NCBI GenBank assembly: GCA_051294905.1
Contig: CM119372.1
Coordinates: forward strand, 29,204,001 to 29,268,000
Reading direction: 5' to 3'
From: Botryllus schlosseri
Taxonomy: Eukaryota
DNA: 64,000 nt
The notes below the pieces were generated by a model. It searched no databases, had not been told where the DNA came from, and saw nothing but the letters and a program-made list of their open reading frames with translations. Both the position numbers and the translations under genes were made by a program. Each line of letters opens with the position of its first letter. Positions within the stretch are counted from its first letter, which is position 1. Below, one piece after another: positions 15,624-50,907 of this stretch.

Positions 15624-16886
15624 GACTGACGCGGGAGCACGCCCGCTACACTTTGCGATCCCCCAAAGCATTGTATGACGAAAATACGGTAAATTATTCT
15701 ACTGGTAATAGAGTATTTATTTTGTTATTACGTCTACTTGCATATCATCAACAAATGTTTGTTGAGCGATGACTACACGAAAAAGAGTATGAGCAGGAAA
15801 ACAGAACTTTTAAAACAAAAAGGGAAGAAGAGTTTGCATTCAGTGATAATATTGTAGGTAAGCCAATGTGGCTCATCTATCAAGATTCGCTCAATAAATA
15901 CAAATCTAGTAACTTGAGCTGTGACTCTTGTAAGAATCTGCATCCAAGGTGCATGGCCACCGATTTATGAGCTGACGTGTTTTCGAAGCTGAGAAAGATA
16001 ACTCGCTTTTGGACCCGATTAGTACGGCAAAGGACAAGATATTACTGGATGAACTCGATATATACTGGATATACTTGATACTGGATATACTGGATAGCTG
16101 GATATACGACGTAACAATTCAGGAACTATCCGATGAACAATGGCGACGGCCTTGGAGAAGTACAACGCTGACGATACCGACGCAAAAAGAAATTATACGC
16201 AGGTATCATAAGCAACAGTAACGGAAAGAGCAGAGAATACAACAGTACAGAAAATAACACAATCAGGAAACACCGATGTTCAACCATACCAGACCAAATA
16301 CCTTCTATATAAAGAGAAATGAGGGCATTCAGGTCGGTACAATAATTGAAGAATTGCAACACAACAGCATCACAAGTGAATACTACAAACACATTATGGC
16401 AGGCTTATATGAGCTGAGGAAAGGAACATGGATTATGAATTTGATCACAGAAACCAATGGAAAGAACTTGAGGGATGAATTGTACCACCAGATGAAAAAA
16501 GACACTTATGAAGCAAAATTCCGCAATATAACTTTTGAACTCCCAAGACGTCCAACGACACACCTCATTGTTAAAGGAATACCATACGAATCTGAAGAGG
16601 AGGATATAGCCGATCAATTGACTGAATATGGTCTCGGGACGGCTATCAACCAGACCAGAGTCTTAAGAAGGAACACGAACTGGTACAATGAGTTCACTAA
16701 CATCTGGGTGGAAGAATTCGGAAAGAAAACATGCCCTACCATATAAAAGTTGATGGGTATTGATGCCTTATCAGAACAGCTAAAGACGCTTATCAGAAGC
16801 AATGTTACAACTGCAATCTGACGGGGCATATATTGTAAGGGAATGCCTGAGTGAAAAAATGGTAGCAGGATGTGCAAATAACTAGG
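15624..16886 (+). repeat. 1.26-kb composite dispersed repeat, copy 1 (hAT fragment plus LINE 5' end)
   Basis: Near-identical to 49645-50907 at a constant offset of 34021. Confidence 0.95.
15770..15917 (+). mobile_element. hAT (GTF2IRD2/EPM2AIP1-like, Buster group) transposase N-terminal fragment
   Basis: Encodes EYEQENRTFKTKREEEFAFSDNIVGKPMWLIYQDSLNKYKSSNL. The same sequence lies inverted at ~20070-20245, where it continues CLICQDSLNKYKSSNLKHETKH. Confidence 0.7.
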
Positions 16887-24065: not shown

Positions 24066-25457
24066 GTAATCACTACCGTGTCACGCTGGTAGAGTCCTTG
24101 AATCCGTAGTTGAATCGTTGACTTTGTCTATTATATCCTAGAGCTTTTACCAACCAGGGGGGCCCTTGTAGCGTTCTGCTCCCTGATGATGTTGATTGCA
24201 CTGCACTGATCATTAATCAGGCTGCTATTTGTTTCTGTTTGCGAACCTATGTTGTGCCAGTCGGCTTTTAGTCGCCTTTTAGTGACCGTCGGAGGTGCAG
24301 TCGCTCTTTAGTCTCCGTCGGACGAACATGGTCGTATTTTAGTTGCTTTTAATAAAAGACTCGCGCTAACGTGTCAACGTTATCTATACTGAGCCGCGGA
24401 CCAAGAAGAACGCGCGCCCACGGCAGAGCACGCTATAAGATCACGATGAGGCGTCCTCTCTCGACGGCGCACATCGCACGAATGGCAATTGACATGACTT
24501 GCTGGTCGAGTCATGCGTAGTGACTCGACTACAAGTCGAGTCAATACAAACATTGCCTCAATTCGTGTCGAATCATGGTCCAGATGTATGACAATGACTG
24601 GAGTCAAATTATGGGAAAAGACGTATCTATGATGTCGTCGTCAGAGAACAACATTGTCACAGAGTGAAATTAAAAGGTTTTGGTCGAAACAACATCAAAT
24701 TAGCTTTAATTTGATGTGTAACTGGGATTGTTATCTTTGTGGTTGCTAAAAGGCACGTACTTTTCAAATTTTCCATACTGTTGTGACGCCATCATAAGTG
24801 ATACTCGAATTATCAAGTCGACTCGAAGCCGAATACTCGAGCCAGAACAGAACTACACATACGGACTCGATTTTGGCCAGCCTTACTACCGGCATCCGAT
24901 TGTTTCTGCCTTTCTAGCCATTCTCTCTTTGTGCTCCCATTGCGCATTAAGCTTCGAATGTGTTGGTAATGCGATAAAAACCAATTACCTTCTATGATGC
25001 ATTCAGCAATCAACCTTTATCAATGACCCGATATTTTAGCTGCGGCTTACATTAATAGGCCAGATGCTTAGAGGAATTGCTATCATCTATCAACAATCTG
25101 TTGGCTATAGAATTGCACGTTTTACCACAGTGAATTGCTTGGCTTCCATCCCAAACTGAACATGCGATCATAACATATTACCCATAACTCGGACATACGA
25201 TATCGCTGAATGACATATCATTGCCCGTTTGTATATCACATTTATTTCGGTATGCCAGAACTCATAAATAATGAAACCAAAGTATCACATTCACCATTCG
25301 AATAACATTACAACAAATACTATGCATTTTCTGAGGACGACGTCTACTGTAAAATATGGAGAGGTCTAGTAAAGACGAAATACGACATCGGAGTATATAG
25401 TAGTAACATTCAAACTTTGTAATTTCTAGCTGTATCCCATTGCAGCCTTCGACTTTT

Positions 25458-26489
25458 CTAGCCTGACCATCCCTCTGAAACAAAAAGTATAAAGATGTCA
25501 GCTATCATTCCACATATAACGAATAATACATATTTCGATTGCGGATATGCGCTCATACATTTCCAATAAATAGAAACTGCTTTTGGTCCACGATCAAATA
25601 TGTGAAATCACCCGTTCGATTCGAGAGTAAATTATCAGAATTCGAATATTTTTGAACGGCTTTTGCTTTCCAGTGCGCTCACTGATTAGATAAGGATGTA
25701 ACATGTATATAAATTCGAATTCAAATTTAATTTTTTCGTATTACAGGGATTCACTGATTAACTTGTCAGGTTGTCTAAAAAAACGGTATGCACCAAATTT
25801 TGCTCAATTCCAACCAGAGCCAATTGAAATTTTTATATGTAATAAAAATAATGAAGAATATTTTCTTCAAATTTTATTGTGAATCCCATGAAATTATTGA
25901 GTCGCCGAAAATAACGATGCTTAACAATTTTTGCTCAGAGTGCAGTTGAGAGTATTGGGTTTGCAAAAGTGGCATTAAATGAGGGGTAATCCCAGAGTTA
26001 TTGATAAGAAACTCATAAACTTCGCATCTACGGGTTGTAATTGCGTCAAATTTATTTTGTATTGTTTTTGTAGACAATTTAACAATTTTATGGGGAATCC
26101 ACAGTAAAATTTGAATTTTTTTCAAATTTGTTCAGTATATTAAACAATTCAATTGGCTCCACGGCGGCTTCTGCTGGCTGGAATGGGCCCAAATTTGCTG
26201 TGCGACCTTTTCTAGGCAGCTTAACAATTTAATCAGTGAATCCCCGGAATATTAGAAAAAAGTTTTTGTGAACAACCCTACTGTCTAGCGATCAATGCGT
26301 ATACTGAGCCGTAATGACTATACTCAACTCACTGAACAACACTGCCATTGAGGGTGGCCAGAACTCATCAACTAGTGCTTCACTCTCGTCGCTGTCCCGT
26401 TCCAGTAGTTTGCTGCCGTGTTCAGTTCTCTTCCCCACTGCCACGGCAAATATCATAGCCCAAAACACAATGGTAAGCAATAATTTCAT
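25458..26489 (-). CDS. Small secreted prepropeptide, 57 aa, 2 coding exons (putative amidated bioactive peptide precursor)
   Basis: Exon 26497-26333 has acceptor TTGCTTGTTATAACGCAG, ATG at 26489 and consensus donor CA|GTGAGT (phase 1). It joins the exon starting at 25474 (acceptor TACTTTTTGTTTCAG), with stop TAG at 25460-25458. Product: MKLLLTIVFWAMIFAVAVG-KRTEHGSKLLERDSDESEALVDE-FWPPSMAVLFKGWSG*. Minus-strand AATAAA at 25246-25241. Confidence 0.75.
25744..26246. mobile_element. MITE in the prepropeptide intron (Tc1/mariner-like ends)
   Basis: TA|CAGGGATTCACTGATTAA at the left end pairs with TTAATCAGTGAATCCCCG at the right, and the inverted similarity extends inward. The right TSD is unclear. 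Confidence 0.65.
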
Positions 26490-27230
26490 TATTCCTCCTG
26501 CGTTATAACAAGCAAATCTGCCCTTCAACAATGAAAGGTCTTGTAACTGCCGTATAAACATCTTGCATTAGCACATTAATGTTATGTAGGCACACCCCTC
26601 GTTGCCGAGATATTAGCAGAGCCGGTGAATACAGAAATACCTTTACTATTTAAAAGTATACTCTAGCGTGATTTTTCTACTGGCCCTGATTACTCAAAGC
26701 GGTCATATTTTTAGGATTTCCATAGTTCAGAGTTGATTAGGCAAAATTCCTTACTTTTCAGATCTATTAAGTAGTAGATATTTTTCGCATGTTTCAAACA
26801 CGTTTATCAGTGAAATTGTTATAACAACTGGGCGCAGTAGTCCCTGCAGCACGAATACAAATATGTAAAATCGACAATGATTGTAGACGATAATTGCACG
26901 TGGCTTGTAATTTAACTTGTTAGTATGTGATATTACCGTTATTTGGCAATTAAGTCAATTTACTAGAATTACGAACTCACCAACTCACTGCGCGGTCCAT
27001 TTAAAAGCCCGGAGTTGCAGTGACTTTAAAAGCAGTGCGCGACCGCGCAGCTTAGAGGGAACAGTGCTTGTCAGTATGTGATATTGCAGTCATTTGGCGG
27101 TTAAGTCAATTTACAAGAATTTATTCGCAAAATTAGTAACAGTCACCTGTCACACTACAACATACCAGGCTACTATAGCTACACGAATTAGCTACCAATT
27201 ATTTGCAGCCGGTGAACATGTGAAACTTAC

Positions 27231-27390
27231 TGTCACTTAGATATCATTCATCATTAGATATCACTTAGCGGGTACATTGTAAGGAATTGGCTGAATCTAG
27301 AAACAATTTTAGTAGATTAATTAGTACGGTATAGGATACACCATAAATGACTGACCGACGCGGCTGATGCAATAACTCCATATATAGATA
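27231..27390 (-). promoter_or_regulatory. Candidate core promoter and non-coding upstream exon of the prepropeptide gene
   Basis: On the minus strand, TATATAT starts at 27386, about 34 nt upstream of an Inr-like TCAGT (27354-27350). A consensus donor CA|GTAAGT is at 27230. An acceptor-like CTAAT...TTGTTTCTAG at ~27298 could instead define an internal or trans-spliced exon. Short upstream ATGs weaken the model. Confidence 0.35.
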
Positions 27391-27861
27391 TATAGATATA
27401 TAGCCTATGATGTGTATCTTTGTATAGTAACGAAGTAAAGCATATCACTCTATCTCTAGTCTCTGACCTAGGGGTGGGAACATACGGCTCGCGGGCCGAA
27501 CCGGCCCACGACGGAGTTTTGAGCGACCCGCAGACAGTTTCTGGTCGTACATGATAATGTAACCCGCTGGTCATGTACAGTCTTCACCAAGAGTTTCAAC
27601 GTCCGACATACAGCTAGAGGTCAAATAACCTTCTGACAACTTTGATCGACCGCAGATATCTCATTGACTTCACTAGCTATTGCAATTCATTAATAAATGC
27701 TGAGCATAAAGTTTACATTAAATACGATACATTCCTCGTATAGGTAGACAAATACGTAATTATTCTAGCGATTCAGGACTCCTGCCCGCCAGGTAAGCCT
27801 ACTTCACTTTACCATATTTGACCCACCGACTACTCAAGCTGCCCACCCCTCCTCCAACAGG

Positions 27862-49644: not shown

Positions 49645-50907
49645 GACTGACGCGGGAGCACGCCCGCTACACTTTGCGATCCCCCAAAGCATTGTATGAC
49701 GAAAATACGGTAAATTATTCTACTGGTAATAGAGTATTTATTTTATTATTACGTCTACTTGCATATCATCAACAAATGTTTGTTGAGCGATAACTACACG
49801 AAAAAGAGTATGAGCAGGAAAACAGAACTTTTAAAACAAAAAGGGAAGGAGAGTTTGCATTCAGTGATAATATTGTAGGTAAGCCAATGTGGCTCATCTA
49901 TCAAGATTCGCTCAATAAATACAAATCTAGTAACTTGAGCTGTGACTCTTGTAAGAATCTGCATCCAAGGTGCATGGCCACCGATTTATGAGCTGACGTG
50001 TTTTCGACGCTGAGAAAGATAACTCGCTTTTGGACCCGTTTAGTACGGCAAAGGACAAGATATTACTGGATGGACTCGATATATACTGGATATACTTGAT
50101 ACTGGATATACTGGATAGCTGGATATACGACGTAACAATTCAGGAACTATCCGATGAACAATGGCGACGGCCTTGGAGAAGTACAACGCTGACGATACCG
50201 ATGCAAAAAGAAATTATACGCAGGTATCATAAGCAACAGTAACGGAAAGAGCAGAGAATACAACAGTACAGAAAATAAAACAATCAGGAAACACCGATGT
50301 TCAACCATACCAGACCAAATACCTTCTATATAAAGAGAAATGAAGGCATTCAGGTCGGTACAATAATTGAAGAATTACAACACAACAGCATCACAAGTGA
50401 ATACTACAAACACAGCATTGCAGGCTTATATGAGCTGAGGAAAGGAACATGGATTATGAATTCGATCACAGAAACCAATGGAACGAACTTGAGGGATGAA
50501 TTGTACCACCAGATGAAACAAAACACTTATGAAGCAAAATTCCGCAATATAACTTTTGAACTCCCAAGACGTCCAACGACACACCTCATTGTTAAAGGAA
50601 TACCATACGAATCTAAAGAGGAGGATATAGCCGATCAATTGATTGAATATGGTTTCGTGACGGCTATCAACCAGACCAGAGTCTTAAGAAGAAACACGAA
50701 CTGGTACAATGAGTTCACTAACATCTGGGTGGAAGAATTCAGAAAGAAAACATGCCCTACCGTATAAAAGTTGATGGGTATTGATGCCTTATCAGAACAG
50801 CTGAAGAGGCTTATCAGAGGGAATGTTACAACTGCGATCTGACGGGGCATATATTGTAAGGGAATGCATGAGTGAAAAAATGGTAGCAGGATGTGCAAAT
50901 AACTAGG
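49645..50907 (+). repeat. 1.26-kb composite dispersed repeat, copy 2
   Basis: Near-identical to 15624-16886; it ends inside the second zinc knuckle of ORF1. Confidence 0.95.

What the first reader, a model, noticed from the sequence alone, without database searches (positions are those of the whole stretch)
25241..26497. Hidden two-exon gene for an unassigned 57-aa prepropeptide ending in a Gly amidation donor
Seen in the sequence: a consensus acceptor before the ATG, a perfect GTGAGT donor, a strong acceptor 858 nt downstream, a stop right after Gly, and AATAAA about 210 nt later. The ORF track misses the true C-terminus. Splicing gives MKLLLTIVFWAMIFAVAVG (signal) + KRTEHGSKLLERDSDESEALVDE (dibasic start, acidic spacer) + FWPPSMAVLFKGWS-G*. 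Established knowledge: signal / acidic pro / hydrophobic core / terminal Gly is the architecture of PAM-amidated animal peptides. Ascidian clavanin-type and frog temporin precursors share these elements, and some cnidarian neuropeptides are released after acidic residues. Inference: the mature product is about FWPPSMAVLFKGWS-NH2. It is Cys-free, has two Trp and a Pro-Pro, and has no basic cleavage site directly before it, which implies non-canonical processing. Its Trp, Lys and Pro could be modified, as Trp bromination and Lys hydroxylation are known in ascidian styelins. I cannot place it in a known family, so it may be a new defence or signalling peptide, or an animal RiPP-like precursor.
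Basis: partly seen in the sequence, partly recalled or inferred. Interest (0 to 1): 0.85.

Follow-up and report, generated by a model that had tools for sequence, protein, structure and literature searches.

The report
Spliced orphan secreted-peptide gene in tunicate
This is a real, transcribed two-exon gene for a 57-residue secreted peptide precursor, one of about nine copies of an undescribed sea-squirt gene family with a fixed leader and a fast-changing peptide end; what the peptide does is still unknown.

Summary
On the minus strand the ATG is at 26489. A GTGAGT donor follows 26333, the acceptor lies before 25474, and the intron is 858 nt. TAG follows Gly at 25460-25458, and AATAAA is at 25246-25241.

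Transcript-like contigs from two studies carry exactly the 26333^25474 junction with no mismatches. The 57-aa product is therefore real at RNA level.

The "acceptor before the ATG" is not used. The contigs run straight through it, and it is absent in the paralogs.

The host is a tunicate with spliced-leader trans-splicing.

The gene belongs to a family of about 9 loci. The family shares a near-invariant signal peptide, a pro-region with KLLER and LVD[DE] motifs, and a hypervariable Pro/Phe/Trp/Cys-rich C-terminal core. That core diverges faster than the intron.

Most intact paralogs stop at the donor, for example ...PFPPCFPFC*. The window copy lost the Cys pair and that stop, so it reads into exon 2 (+KGWSG).

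There is no Pfam or named homologue. The only outside hit is one unnamed 65-aa protein.

Amidation and the exact mature peptide remain inference.

The parts
26549..26740 (-). Conserved upstream (promoter) region, with an AT-rich ATTAATG at 26580-26574, about 30 nt before the 5' end of the longest transcript contig
   Evidence: Aligns with paralog loci L002-L004 at 68-85% identity to the window (alignment). X1 contig 5' end at 26548. The promoter role is inferred.
26490..26548 (-). 5'UTR or outron. It holds no ATG. The in-frame upstream ATG at 26561 lies outside the transcript.
   Evidence: X1 contig reaches 26548 and X2 reaches 26525, both collinear with the genome. No ATG in 26548-26490.
26518..26520 (-). 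Family-conserved CAG acceptor, where paralog transcripts carry the spliced leader. Its use by the window copy is not shown.
   Evidence: Loose ends 'behind' 26519/26520/26521: X19 has 191/25/24 reads and X23 has 748/204/416 reads. They carry the leader ...ATTGGAGTATTTGGTTGTATTA(AG). CAG is conserved in L002-L004.
26498..26500 (-). Present in the sequence but not used.
   Evidence: The contigs run through it. The AG is absent at this place in L002, L003 and L004.
26433..26489 (-). Codons 1-19: signal peptide MKLLLTIVFWAMIFAVAVG
   Evidence: Mean Kyte-Doolittle hydropathy is 2.77 over residues 3-18, with Ala at -3 and Gly at -1. 89-93% nt identity to L002-L004. M1, K2, L5, I7, F9, W10, A15 and G19 are invariant in 8 members. 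No SignalP was run.
26364..26432 (-). Codons 20-42: acidic pro-region KRTEHGSKLLERDSDESEALVDE, with the family motifs KLLER and LVD[DE]
   Evidence: 4 K/R against 8 D/E. Family alignment A1. 75-80% nt identity to L002-L004.
26333..26363 (-). Exon-1 part of the hypervariable core (FWPPSMAVLF plus the first base of the Lys codon)
   Evidence: Only 30-58% nt identity to L002-L004, with many gaps, against 80-90% for the intron segments.
25475..26332 (-). 858-nt GT..AG intron
   Evidence: Joint 25474|26333 'skips 858, CT..AC' in one contig each of X1 and X2, with 0 other letters.
25731..26259 (.). MITE-like dispersed repeat inside the intron (52-nt inverted arms, 79% complementary)
   Evidence: Inverted repeat 25731-25782 / 26208-26259. 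2866 first-look candidates in the genome, 40 scored, 96 matches. Present at the same place in L002-L004.
25458..25474 (-). Exon-2 coding part: completes Lys, then Gly-Trp-Ser-Gly and TAG (25460-25458)
   Evidence: This segment is 59-71% identical to the paralogs, while the paralogs are 85-95% identical to each other here.
25224..25457 (-). 3'UTR with AATAAA at 25246-25241. The transcript contigs end 17 nt after it (X1, 25224) or before it (X2, 25254).
   Evidence: 82-85% identity to paralog 3'UTRs.

Best explanation
This is a small expressed gene of a tunicate.

**Shown**
- A transcript of about 470 nt runs from about 26548 to about 25224, with one 858-nt GT..AG intron removed at 26333^25474.
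- Its first ATG opens a 57-codon frame.
- The gene is one of about nine paralogous loci. They share a promoter-proximal region, a trans-splice acceptor, a near-invariant signal peptide and a pro-region with [KR][KR]-SEHxxKLLER and LVD[DE] motifs.
- They also share a short C-terminal core (about 9-20 residues, rich in Pro/Phe/Trp, with 0, 2 or 4 Cys). This core differs completely between copies and has diverged faster than the adjacent intron.
- In most intact paralogs the frame stops at or next to the donor, so the intron lies in the 3'UTR.
- The window copy lacks both Cys and that stop, and it has a CAG acceptor of its own. Its frame therefore crosses the intron and picks up Lys-Gly-Trp-Ser-Gly.

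**Inferred**
- The precursor enters the ER and loses its signal after Gly19.
- The acidic pro-region is removed at or near the LVDE|F boundary. This would be a non-basic site recognised through the conserved motif.
- The terminal Gly may be converted to an amide. That would give a roughly 14-residue hydrophobic, weakly cationic secreted peptide (monoisotopic 1650.84 as amide).
- A conserved leader with a hypervariable core, together with the very high expression of a sister copy, fits a secreted effector (defence or signalling) under diversifying selection.
For: **Junction and transcript ends**
- X1 contig, 469 nt, depth 32.8. X2 contig, 414 nt, depth 47. Neither has any other differing letters. 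The two runs come from two studies.
- No retrocopy explains the contigs. The only 100% match to exon 1 in the 495.5-Mb assembly is the window itself, and the next best is 86%.
- Translation of the spliced CDS.

**Family**
- One search gave 7 DNA matches including self.
- One search gave 10 protein matches: 9 at E <= 0.0165 including self, and 1 doubtful at E = 1.5.
- re-found 6 and 7 of the same loci. One search added only a further doubtful match (L042, E = 0.6).
- Alignment A1 has 9 invariant columns, 8 of them in the signal peptide.

**Region-wise identity of the window copy to L002-L004**
- Signal 89-93%.
- Pro-region 75-80%.
- Core 30-58%, with gaps.
- Intron segments 80-90%.
- 3'UTR 82-85%.

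**Expression of a sister copy**
- 4223 of 9.98 million records of X23 and 885 of 12.9 million of X19 lay on the conserved parts.
- Their loose ends read as the L003 sequence and as the spliced leader.

**Host**
- The leader has 190 genomic matches against 0 for the control.
- Three of the 8 copies inspected are followed by GTAAGC.
- The leader is identical to the 'Chordata 1' spliced-leader consensus in Table 1 of PMC3795323 (passage read).

**Signal-peptide features:**
Against: - No peptide-level data exist. Cleavage sites and amidation are untested.
- C-terminal Gly is not shared by the paralogs.
- The window copy's core and tail look remodelled. It lost both Cys and the ancestral stop, and its exon-2 start is only 59-71% identical to the paralogs, which are 85-95% identical to each other there. 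This pattern also fits decay.
- pN/pS in the pro-region is 0.70 and 1.71 against two paralogs, on 2-5 synonymous differences. Purifying selection on that part is therefore not shown.
- In the two raw RNA-seq runs, 0 reads (X19) and 1 read (X23) were 99% or more alike. All but one of the laid reads were only partly on the stretch. The window copy itself was therefore not detected there, though only 6% and 13% of those runs were read.
- X1 and X2 are labelled 'RNA?' by guess. Their RNA nature is inferred from the spliced contigs and from their small size (15-16 million letters).
- There is no basic cleavage site before the proposed core.
Confidence: 0.75

Rival explanations
1. The gene is a transcribed but decaying paralogue. 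It is a copy of a Cys-loop peptide gene that lost its two Cys and its stop codon. The 57-aa frame would then be an accident of where the next stop falls after splicing, and any product would have no function.
For: - L002/L018 and L003/L017 end ...C*|GTGAGT. The window copy has neither the Cys nor the TAG.
- After splicing only 5 more codons are read, so an open frame is weak evidence.
- One close paralog (L004/L020) already has a broken frame: a 1-nt gap and a stop after 38 codons.
- The window copy was not seen in X19 or X23.
Against: - The signal peptide is intact and 89-93% identical at nt level to the paralogs, which is at or above the 80-90% of the intron segments.
- pN/pS in the signal is 0.18 and 0.55, though on tiny counts.
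- Promoter, donor, acceptor and poly(A) signal are intact, and the transcript is assembled at depth 33-47 in two studies.
- Other members without Cys exist (L019, L022, and P0002 from another species), so a linear core is a family variant rather than a defect.
Confidence: 0.2
2. The gene is functional, but the active product is not the 14-mer. Two alternatives are possible:
- Cleavage at the conserved Arg31 (KLLER|) would give a 25-residue acidic peptide.
- The conserved piece SEHxxKLLE, flanked by [KR][KR] and R, would be the bioactive part, and the variable tail would be a spacer.
For: - KLLER and the preceding basic pair are the most conserved non-signal residues.
- Basic residues are the canonical convertase sites, and none precedes the proposed core.
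- In L022 the core follows directly after LRDR, with no acidic spacer.
Against: - LVD[DE] is conserved immediately before the variable part in the window copy, L017 and L019, and appears as LADD in L018. It is also present in P0002.
- Hypervariability concentrated in the last 9-20 residues, faster than the intron, is the pattern of a selected mature region, not of a spacer.
Confidence: 0.15
3. The whole feature is a chance ORF and chance splice signals in non-coding or repeat DNA.
For: - The middle of the intron is a high-copy MITE-like repeat.
- The window is otherwise poor in recognisable genes: 0 of 10 long ORFs have a Pfam match.
Against: - Spliced contigs with the exact junction occur in two studies.
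- A multi-locus family shares a conserved signal peptide.
- A related 65-aa protein comes from another organism.
Confidence: 0.02

Closest known systems
Cone-snail conotoxin / contryphan-type precursors (architecture recalled from memory, not fetched here)
   Same: - Short precursor with one mature peptide at the extreme C-terminus.
- Signal peptide most conserved, pro-region intermediate, mature region hypervariable.
- Sister copies encode single-disulfide-sized Pro/aromatic-rich loops (C-x3-C in L018, C-x6-C in L017).
- A terminal Gly as amide donor occurs in both.
   Different: - No sequence similarity was found: the profile search gave 1 unnamed hit only.
- The host is a chordate and no venom apparatus is implied.
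- The Cys framework is not conserved within the family, and the window copy has no Cys.
- The resemblance is of evolutionary mode, not of descent.
Frog-skin temporin-type and ascidian clavanin-type amidated peptide precursors
   Same: Signal, acidic pro-piece, a hydrophobic C-terminal peptide and a Gly amide donor.
   Different: - Those precursors have a basic (KR) site directly before the mature peptide. Here the core follows LVDE.
- The mature peptides there are amphipathic and cationic. This core carries a single Lys (pI 8.75).
- No homology was detected.
Botryllin / styelins (ascidian haemocyte antimicrobial peptides; PMC9966394, passages read)
   Same: Tunicate secreted pre-propeptides made by haemocytes and cleaved to a short mature peptide. 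Post-translational modification of residues is discussed for them.
   Different: - Botryllin is a 158-aa pre-propeptide with a 23-residue signal and a 37-residue mature peptide of net charge +11.
- This precursor is 57 aa with a core of about 14 residues carrying a single Lys (pI 8.75).
Species-specific neuropeptides of the ascidian Ciona (search listing and abstracts only: PMC6475428, PMC8936170)
   Same: Lineage-restricted short secreted peptides in a tunicate, without homologues elsewhere.
   Different: - I could not compare sequences or precursor layouts. A term search of PMC8936170 for six processing words (amidat, Ci-LF, YFV, dibasic, monobasic, processing) found none of them.
- The sister copy here is expressed at a level unusual for a neuropeptide in bulk RNA. 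That is an inference.
Tunichromes, plicatamide, halocyamines, morulin Pm (small modified aromatic peptides of tunicate blood cells; PMC3039461, passages read)
   Same: Very short peptides rich in aromatic residues, Gly and Pro, from tunicates. [quoted passage not shown]
   Different: - None of the listed structures matches any core of this family. Those structures are Dopa/Topa, His or Leu based, whereas these cores are Phe/Trp/Pro/Cys based.
- No modification enzyme or product is linked to this gene.
- This is a lead only.

Membership tests
Amidated secretory peptide precursors (PAM substrates; generic class) | N-terminal signal peptide | tested here: met
   The n-region is MK. There is a 16-residue uncharged h-region with mean hydropathy 2.77, and Ala at -3 and Gly at -1. 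The signal is near-invariant in 8 family members. This was judged by inspection. No SignalP was available.
Amidated secretory peptide precursors (PAM substrates; generic class) | Gly directly C-terminal to the peptide, exposed at the precursor end or before basic residues | tested here: met
   The spliced CDS ends ...Trp-Ser-Gly-TAG. The junction is confirmed in transcript contigs.
Amidated secretory peptide precursors (PAM substrates; generic class) | Mono- or dibasic convertase site immediately N-terminal of the mature peptide | tested here: not met
   The core is preceded by L-V-D-E. The nearest basic residue upstream is Arg31, 11 residues away.
Amidated secretory peptide precursors (PAM substrates; generic class) | Amidating enzyme (PHM + PAL) encoded by the organism | tested here: inconclusive
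   PF03712 (Cu2_monoox_C, shared by PHM and dopamine beta-hydroxylase) gives 21 matches, including a full-length set at C12:9.499 Mb. The NHL search was swamped by 150 listed matches, none next to those loci.
Amidated secretory peptide precursors (PAM substrates; generic class) | C-terminal amide observed on the peptide | not testable with these tools
   This needs mass spectrometry. The expected monoisotopic mass is 1650.838 for the amide and 1651.822 for the free acid.
Styelin / clavanin / botryllin ascidian antimicrobial peptide precursors | Cationic, helix-forming mature peptide of about 23-37 residues within a longer precursor, with sequence similarity to styelins | tested here: not met
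   Botryllin has a 158-aa precursor and a 37-aa mature peptide of charge +11 (PMC9966394 passages). Here the precursor is 57 aa and the core about 14 aa, with pI 8.75. The profile search of 1.84 billion proteins returned only one unnamed 65-aa protein. Styelin and clavanin sequences were not compared directly.
Conserved-leader / hypervariable-core peptide families (conotoxin-like mode of evolution) | Gradient of conservation: signal > pro-region > mature peptide, with the mature part at the C-terminus | tested here: met
   Across all six pairs of the four loci the signal is 89-95% identical, the pro-region 75-91% and the core 30-70% with many gaps. The intron is 78-95%.
Conserved-leader / hypervariable-core peptide families (conotoxin-like mode of evolution) | Conserved cysteine framework in the mature peptide | tested here: not met
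   The window copy has 0 Cys. L018 has C-x3-C, L017 has C-x6-C and L021 has 4 Cys. L019, L022 and P0002 have none.
The new tunicate family itself (MKxLLTIVFWAM... prepropeptides) | Shared signal peptide, KLLER and LVD[DE] motifs, conserved CAG trans-splice acceptor about 30 nt before the ATG, and an intron directly after the core | tested here: met
   The window copy has all of these.
The new tunicate family itself (MKxLLTIVFWAM... prepropeptides) | Stop codon at or overlapping the exon-1 donor (intron in the 3'UTR) | tested here: not met
   This feature is present in L017, L018 and L021, and possibly L022. It is absent in the window copy and in L019 (...WWSNRG|GTAATA). Both read past the donor.

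The most novel reading that the evidence does not exclude
The family may be an animal RiPP-like system. In this reading the conserved leader, with its KLLER and LVD[DE] motifs, would be a recognition sequence for tailoring and cleaving enzymes. The hypervariable Phe/Trp/Pro/Gly/Cys cores would be the ribosomal precursors of small, heavily modified aromatic blood-cell peptides of tunicates, the chemical class of halocyamines, plicatamide, morulin and tunichromes. The biosynthetic origin of that class is described as unknown in PMC3039461. The window copy would then yield a modified, amidated Trp-containing peptide.
Probability: 0.07. Interest if true: 0.85.

Novelty: new variant of a known kind. 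Interest (0 to 1): 0.5.

Why it matters
Short secreted-peptide genes are routinely missed by gene finders. Here a 57-codon gene is shown to be real, and it leads to a whole family.

A chordate family with a frozen signal peptide and a core that changes faster than its own intron suggests diversifying selection of the kind known from venom and skin peptides. That makes the cores candidates for new bioactive peptides, whether antimicrobial, signalling or allorecognition-related.

The family also shows how a coding end can be rebuilt. Loss of a stop at a 3'UTR intron, together with an acceptor that differs from the paralogs', recruits former 3'UTR sequence as a new C-terminus.

If the cores turn out to be modified, the family would give a genetic handle on the unexplained origin of small aromatic tunicate peptides.

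Tried and rejected
- A profile search of the own genome was not accepted. I used two further single-member protein searches instead.

**Sequencing runs**
- No RNA holder is listed on record.
- X1 and X2 are guessed RNA. I laid them and rely on what the lay shows.
- Raw runs X19 and X23 did not show the window copy (0 and 1 reads at 99% or more). Their reads come from paralogs.
- The alternative acceptor 2 nt downstream is seen in no contig. Contigs drop rare variants, so minor use is not excluded.
- Other joints are attributed to paralog or MITE cross-mapping and are not part of this gene. They have short sides of 22-33 letters or non-canonical ends: 25255>25377, 25817>26222, 25937>26047, 27001>27045, and the opposite-strand joint 25367/26458.

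**Database and literature searches with no useful result**
- Word-indexed protein search with alignment A1: 27 candidates, none at E <= 0.01.
- Pfam on 8 family members: 0 families.
- ESM Atlas: best score 0.75, a bacterial hypothetical protein, meaningless.
- Earlier findings of this scan: nothing, by place or by sequence.
- Paper search for a 10-residue piece of the signal peptide: 0 papers.
- Search for the PAL part of the amidating enzyme through NHL repeats: swamped and inconclusive.
- A term search of PMC8936170 for six processing words found none of them.

**Species**
- I used 'Botryllus' as a literature search term on a guess. No call establishes the species. Only 'tunicate' is supported.

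**Selection test**
- pN/pS was computed but rests on 1-5 synonymous changes per segment. I do not use it as proof of selection.
Full report
**1. Observation**

- The ATG is at 26489-26487, in the context GGAATAATGA.
- An open frame runs to ...GTG TTG TTC A, followed by GTGAGT. The last exon base is 26333.
- A pyrimidine-rich tract ends in tttcag before 25474.
- After the junction come the codons A|AG GGA TGG TCA GGC TAG, with the stop at 25460-25458.
- AATAAA lies at 25246-25241, 212 nt after the stop.
- The intron (25475-26332) is exactly 858 nt.

**2. RNA evidence**

The run search listed 24 runs. Sixteen hold part of the stretch, and none of those is on record as RNA. Five runs (X1-X5) hold 0.23-0.31 of the sampled words, which is about the exon share of the 1311-nt query.

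I laid X1 and X2 (Logan contigs from two studies) and two raw RNA-seq runs of 2026 (X19, X23) on window 24200-27800. X1 and X2 each contain one contig that skips exactly 25475-26332. The skipped ends are CT..AC on the + strand, which is GT..AG on the gene strand. Neither contig has any other differing letters.
- X1: 469 nt, depth 32.8, covering 26548-26333 and 25474-25224.
- X2: 414 nt, depth 47, covering 26525-26333 and 25474-25254.

The assembly holds no intron-less copy. The only 100% match to exon 1 is the window itself, and the next best is 86%. The contigs must therefore come from spliced RNA.

They show three further things:
- There is no internal exon.
- The 3' end lies 17 nt after AATAAA.
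- There is no splice at the cag|G just before the ATG, because both contigs are collinear with the genome across it.

The in-frame upstream ATG at 26561 lies outside the transcript, and there is no ATG between 26548 and 26490. 26489 is therefore the first ATG of the transcript.

**3. Host and 5' end**

The raw reads of X19 and X23 were all 90-99% alike, and all but one of them (885 of 885 in X19, 4222 of 4223 in X23) lay only partly on the stretch. They cover only 26434-26519 and 25367-25399. Their loose ends read as the sequence of paralog L003.

Beyond 26519-26521 they carry a foreign 5' sequence ending ...ATTGGAGTATTTGGTTGTATTA(AG).
- That sequence has 190 matches in the genome (92 forward, 98 reverse), against 0 for the reversed control.
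- In 3 of 8 copies inspected it is followed by GTAAGC, as in spliced-leader RNA genes. In most of the others it is followed by unrelated sequence, as in retrocopies of trans-spliced mRNAs.
- It equals the 'Chordata 1' spliced-leader consensus in Table 1 of PMC3795323 (passage read).

The organism is therefore a tunicate that trans-splices. The species was not determined. The family's real acceptor before the ATG is the conserved CAG at 26520-26518. Whether the window copy also uses it is not shown, because its contigs extend upstream of it.

**4. A gene family**

DNA and protein searches of the 495.5-Mb assembly found the relatives.
- Three loci (L002 on C1, L003 on C2, L004 on C3) align with the window copy over 1.37-1.67 kb at about 75-76% identity. 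The alignment covers the upstream region, exon 1, the intron, exon 2 and the 3'UTR.
- Five more distant loci share only the 5' part.
- In all there are 9 loci at E <= 0.0165 including the window, plus two doubtful ones (E = 1.5 and 0.6).
- Searches with two other members re-found the same loci. They added only one further doubtful locus, L042.

Eight members align with invariant M1, K2, L5, I7, F9, W10, A15 and G19, plus one Pro in the core. After the signal come [KR][KR]-SEHxxKLLER and, in five members, an acidic spacer ending LVD[DE] or LADD.

The part behind that motif is different in every copy:
- ...PPNCATMFYVC* (L017)
- ...PFPPCFPFC* (L018)
- ...VCFFFCPSSCEICVF* (L021)
- ...APPTTLPPFWNGGW* (L022)
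- ...GTSAFGPSWWSNRG, then the donor (L019)
- FWPPSMAVLF, then the donor, in the window copy

L004/L020 has a 1-nt gap and a premature stop.

**5. Pattern of divergence**

In the four-locus alignment I measured identity by region over all six pairs of loci. The window-versus-paralog subranges are narrower and are given in the evidence fields.

| Region | Identity |
|---|---|
| Signal-coding part | 89-95% |
| Pro-region | 75-91% |
| Core | 30-70%, with many gaps |
| Intron, first 75 nt | 85-95% |
| Intron, remainder | 78-88% |
| 3'UTR | 82-92% |

The core thus changes faster than presumably neutral neighbouring sequence, and the signal changes more slowly. This gradient is the hallmark of families whose mature peptide is under diversifying selection. 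That interpretation is inference.

pN/pS values agree in direction. They are 0.18-1.03 for the signal and 0.70-2.29 for the pro-region. They rest on only 1-5 synonymous differences per segment, so I do not lean on them.

**6. How the window copy differs**

In L017 and L018 the frame ends with TGT TAG directly before GTGAGT. In L021 it ends with TAA one base before GTAAGT. The intron is therefore a 3'UTR intron in those copies.

The window copy reads TTC A|GTGAGT at the homologous place, with no Cys and no stop.

Its exon-2 start (tttCAG|AGGG---ATGG) also differs from the paralogs' tttCTGAAGGAAAATAA. It is only 59-71% identical to them there, while they are 85-95% identical to each other.

The tail Lys-Gly-Trp-Ser-Gly is thus translated from what is 3'UTR in the sister genes. 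L019 also runs past its donor, so reading into exon 2 is not unique to the window copy.

This remodelling can be read in two ways: as the birth of a new linear, possibly amidated peptide, or as decay. I rate decay at about 0.2, for these reasons:
- The signal, promoter, splice and poly(A) signals are intact.
- The transcript is abundant in two studies.
- Cys-free members exist elsewhere, including in another species.

**7. Relatives outside this genome**

- The word-indexed search with the family alignment scored nothing: 27 candidates, none at E <= 0.01.
- Pfam found nothing in 8 of 8 members.
- The Atlas gave only a meaningless 0.75 hit.
- The exhaustive profile search of 1.84 billion representatives gave one protein, P0002. 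It is 65 aa, at E = 8.7e-7, from a Logan assembly, unnamed, in a cluster of 1.
- P0002 has the same signal and an LVDD motif. Its best match in this genome is L019 at 56% identity, so it comes from another organism.

The family is therefore wider than one species, but it is not described in anything I could search. A paper search for a signal-peptide string found 0 papers. Supplements were not examined.

**8. Mechanism**

*Shown:* transcription, the splice, the reading frame, family membership and the conservation gradient.

*Inferred from sequence:*
- ER targeting and signal cleavage after Ala-Val-Gly19 (h-region hydropathy 2.77, small residues at -3 and -1).
- An acidic pro-piece (8 D/E against 4 K/R).
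- Release of the core near LVDE|F, because that is where family conservation stops.

*Inferred from established knowledge of peptide amidation:* a C-terminal Gly can be converted to an amide.

The genome encodes PHM/DBH-type domains (21 PF03712 matches). I could not single out a bifunctional amidating enzyme. There is no basic site before the core, so a non-canonical protease would be needed. Cleavage at the conserved Arg31 is a real alternative.

The sister copy L003 accounts for about 420 laid reads per million records in X23 and about 70 in X19. That suggests an abundant secretory cell type rather than a few neurons. This is inference.

**9. Comparison with known systems**

- **Conotoxin/contryphan-type and frog-skin-type precursors.** The family evolves like these (recalled, not fetched), but it shows no homology to them and lacks a fixed Cys framework.
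- **Botryllin/styelin.** It is not a member. That precursor is 158 aa, with a 37-residue mature peptide of charge +11 (PMC9966394, passages).
- **Small modified aromatic peptides of tunicate blood cells.** A review of these says both ribosomal and non-ribosomal routes are conceivable and the sites of synthesis are unknown (PMC3039461, passages). The Phe/Trp/Pro/Gly-rich cores make a link imaginable, but none of the listed structures matches a core. I keep this as the low-probability novel case.

**10. Verdict**

It is wrong about the acceptor before the ATG. It is untested on amidation, the mature form and function.
- This is a new family of a known kind of gene. I rate interest at 0.5.

Noticed in passing
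window 26518-26521; genome loci L008-L015: The organism trans-splices a leader ending ...ATTGGAGTATTTGGTTGTATTAAG. It has 190 genomic matches against 0 for the control. Some copies are followed by GTAAGC (spliced-leader RNA genes: L011, L012, L013). Others run straight into unrelated sequence, as in retrocopies of trans-spliced mRNAs. The leader is identical to the 'Chordata 1' spliced-leader consensus in PMC3795323.
   Followed up: partly
window 25731-26259: The middle of the intron is a roughly 530-nt MITE-like element with 52-nt inverted arms and an inner 22-nt inverted pair. It gave 2866 first-look candidates in the genome. It sits at the same place in the introns of L002-L004, so it was inserted before those genes duplicated.
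   Followed up: partly
L011 (G000:C2:1.07 Mb), just upstream of its spliced-leader copy, compared with window about 25790-25825: By eye, the sequence directly before one spliced-leader RNA gene (ctggttggaattgaaccaaatttggtg) resembles part of the intronic MITE-like element (ctctggttggaattgagcaaaatttggtg). The repeat and spliced-leader genes may be associated.
   Followed up: no
window 16258-16746 (+) and 50279-50767 (+): Two nearly identical 162-codon open frames lie 34 kb apart on the same strand. This looks like a dispersed or duplicated element. Neither has a Pfam match.
   Followed up: partly
G000:C2:36.83-37.00 Mb (outside the window): Eight of the 21 PF03712 (Cu2_monoox_C; PHM/DBH-type) matches in the genome lie within about 170 kb on the same chromosome as the window. 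This suggests a local expansion of copper monooxygenase genes.
   Followed up: no
G000:C8, many places (outside the window): NHL repeats are strongly expanded: 312 first-look candidates and 150 listed matches, a large share of them on C8.
   Followed up: no
L003/L017 (G000:C2:39.58 Mb): The sister gene encoding ...LVDEPPNCATMFYVC* is highly expressed and carries the spliced leader in two raw RNA-seq runs. The window copy is not detected in those runs. Expression of family members therefore differs between samples or animals.
   Followed up: partly
G000:C1:36.18-36.41 Mb (L018, L024, L023): Three family members lie within 230 kb on C1, forming a loose cluster. The other members are scattered over C1, C2, C3, C7 and C8.
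   Followed up: no
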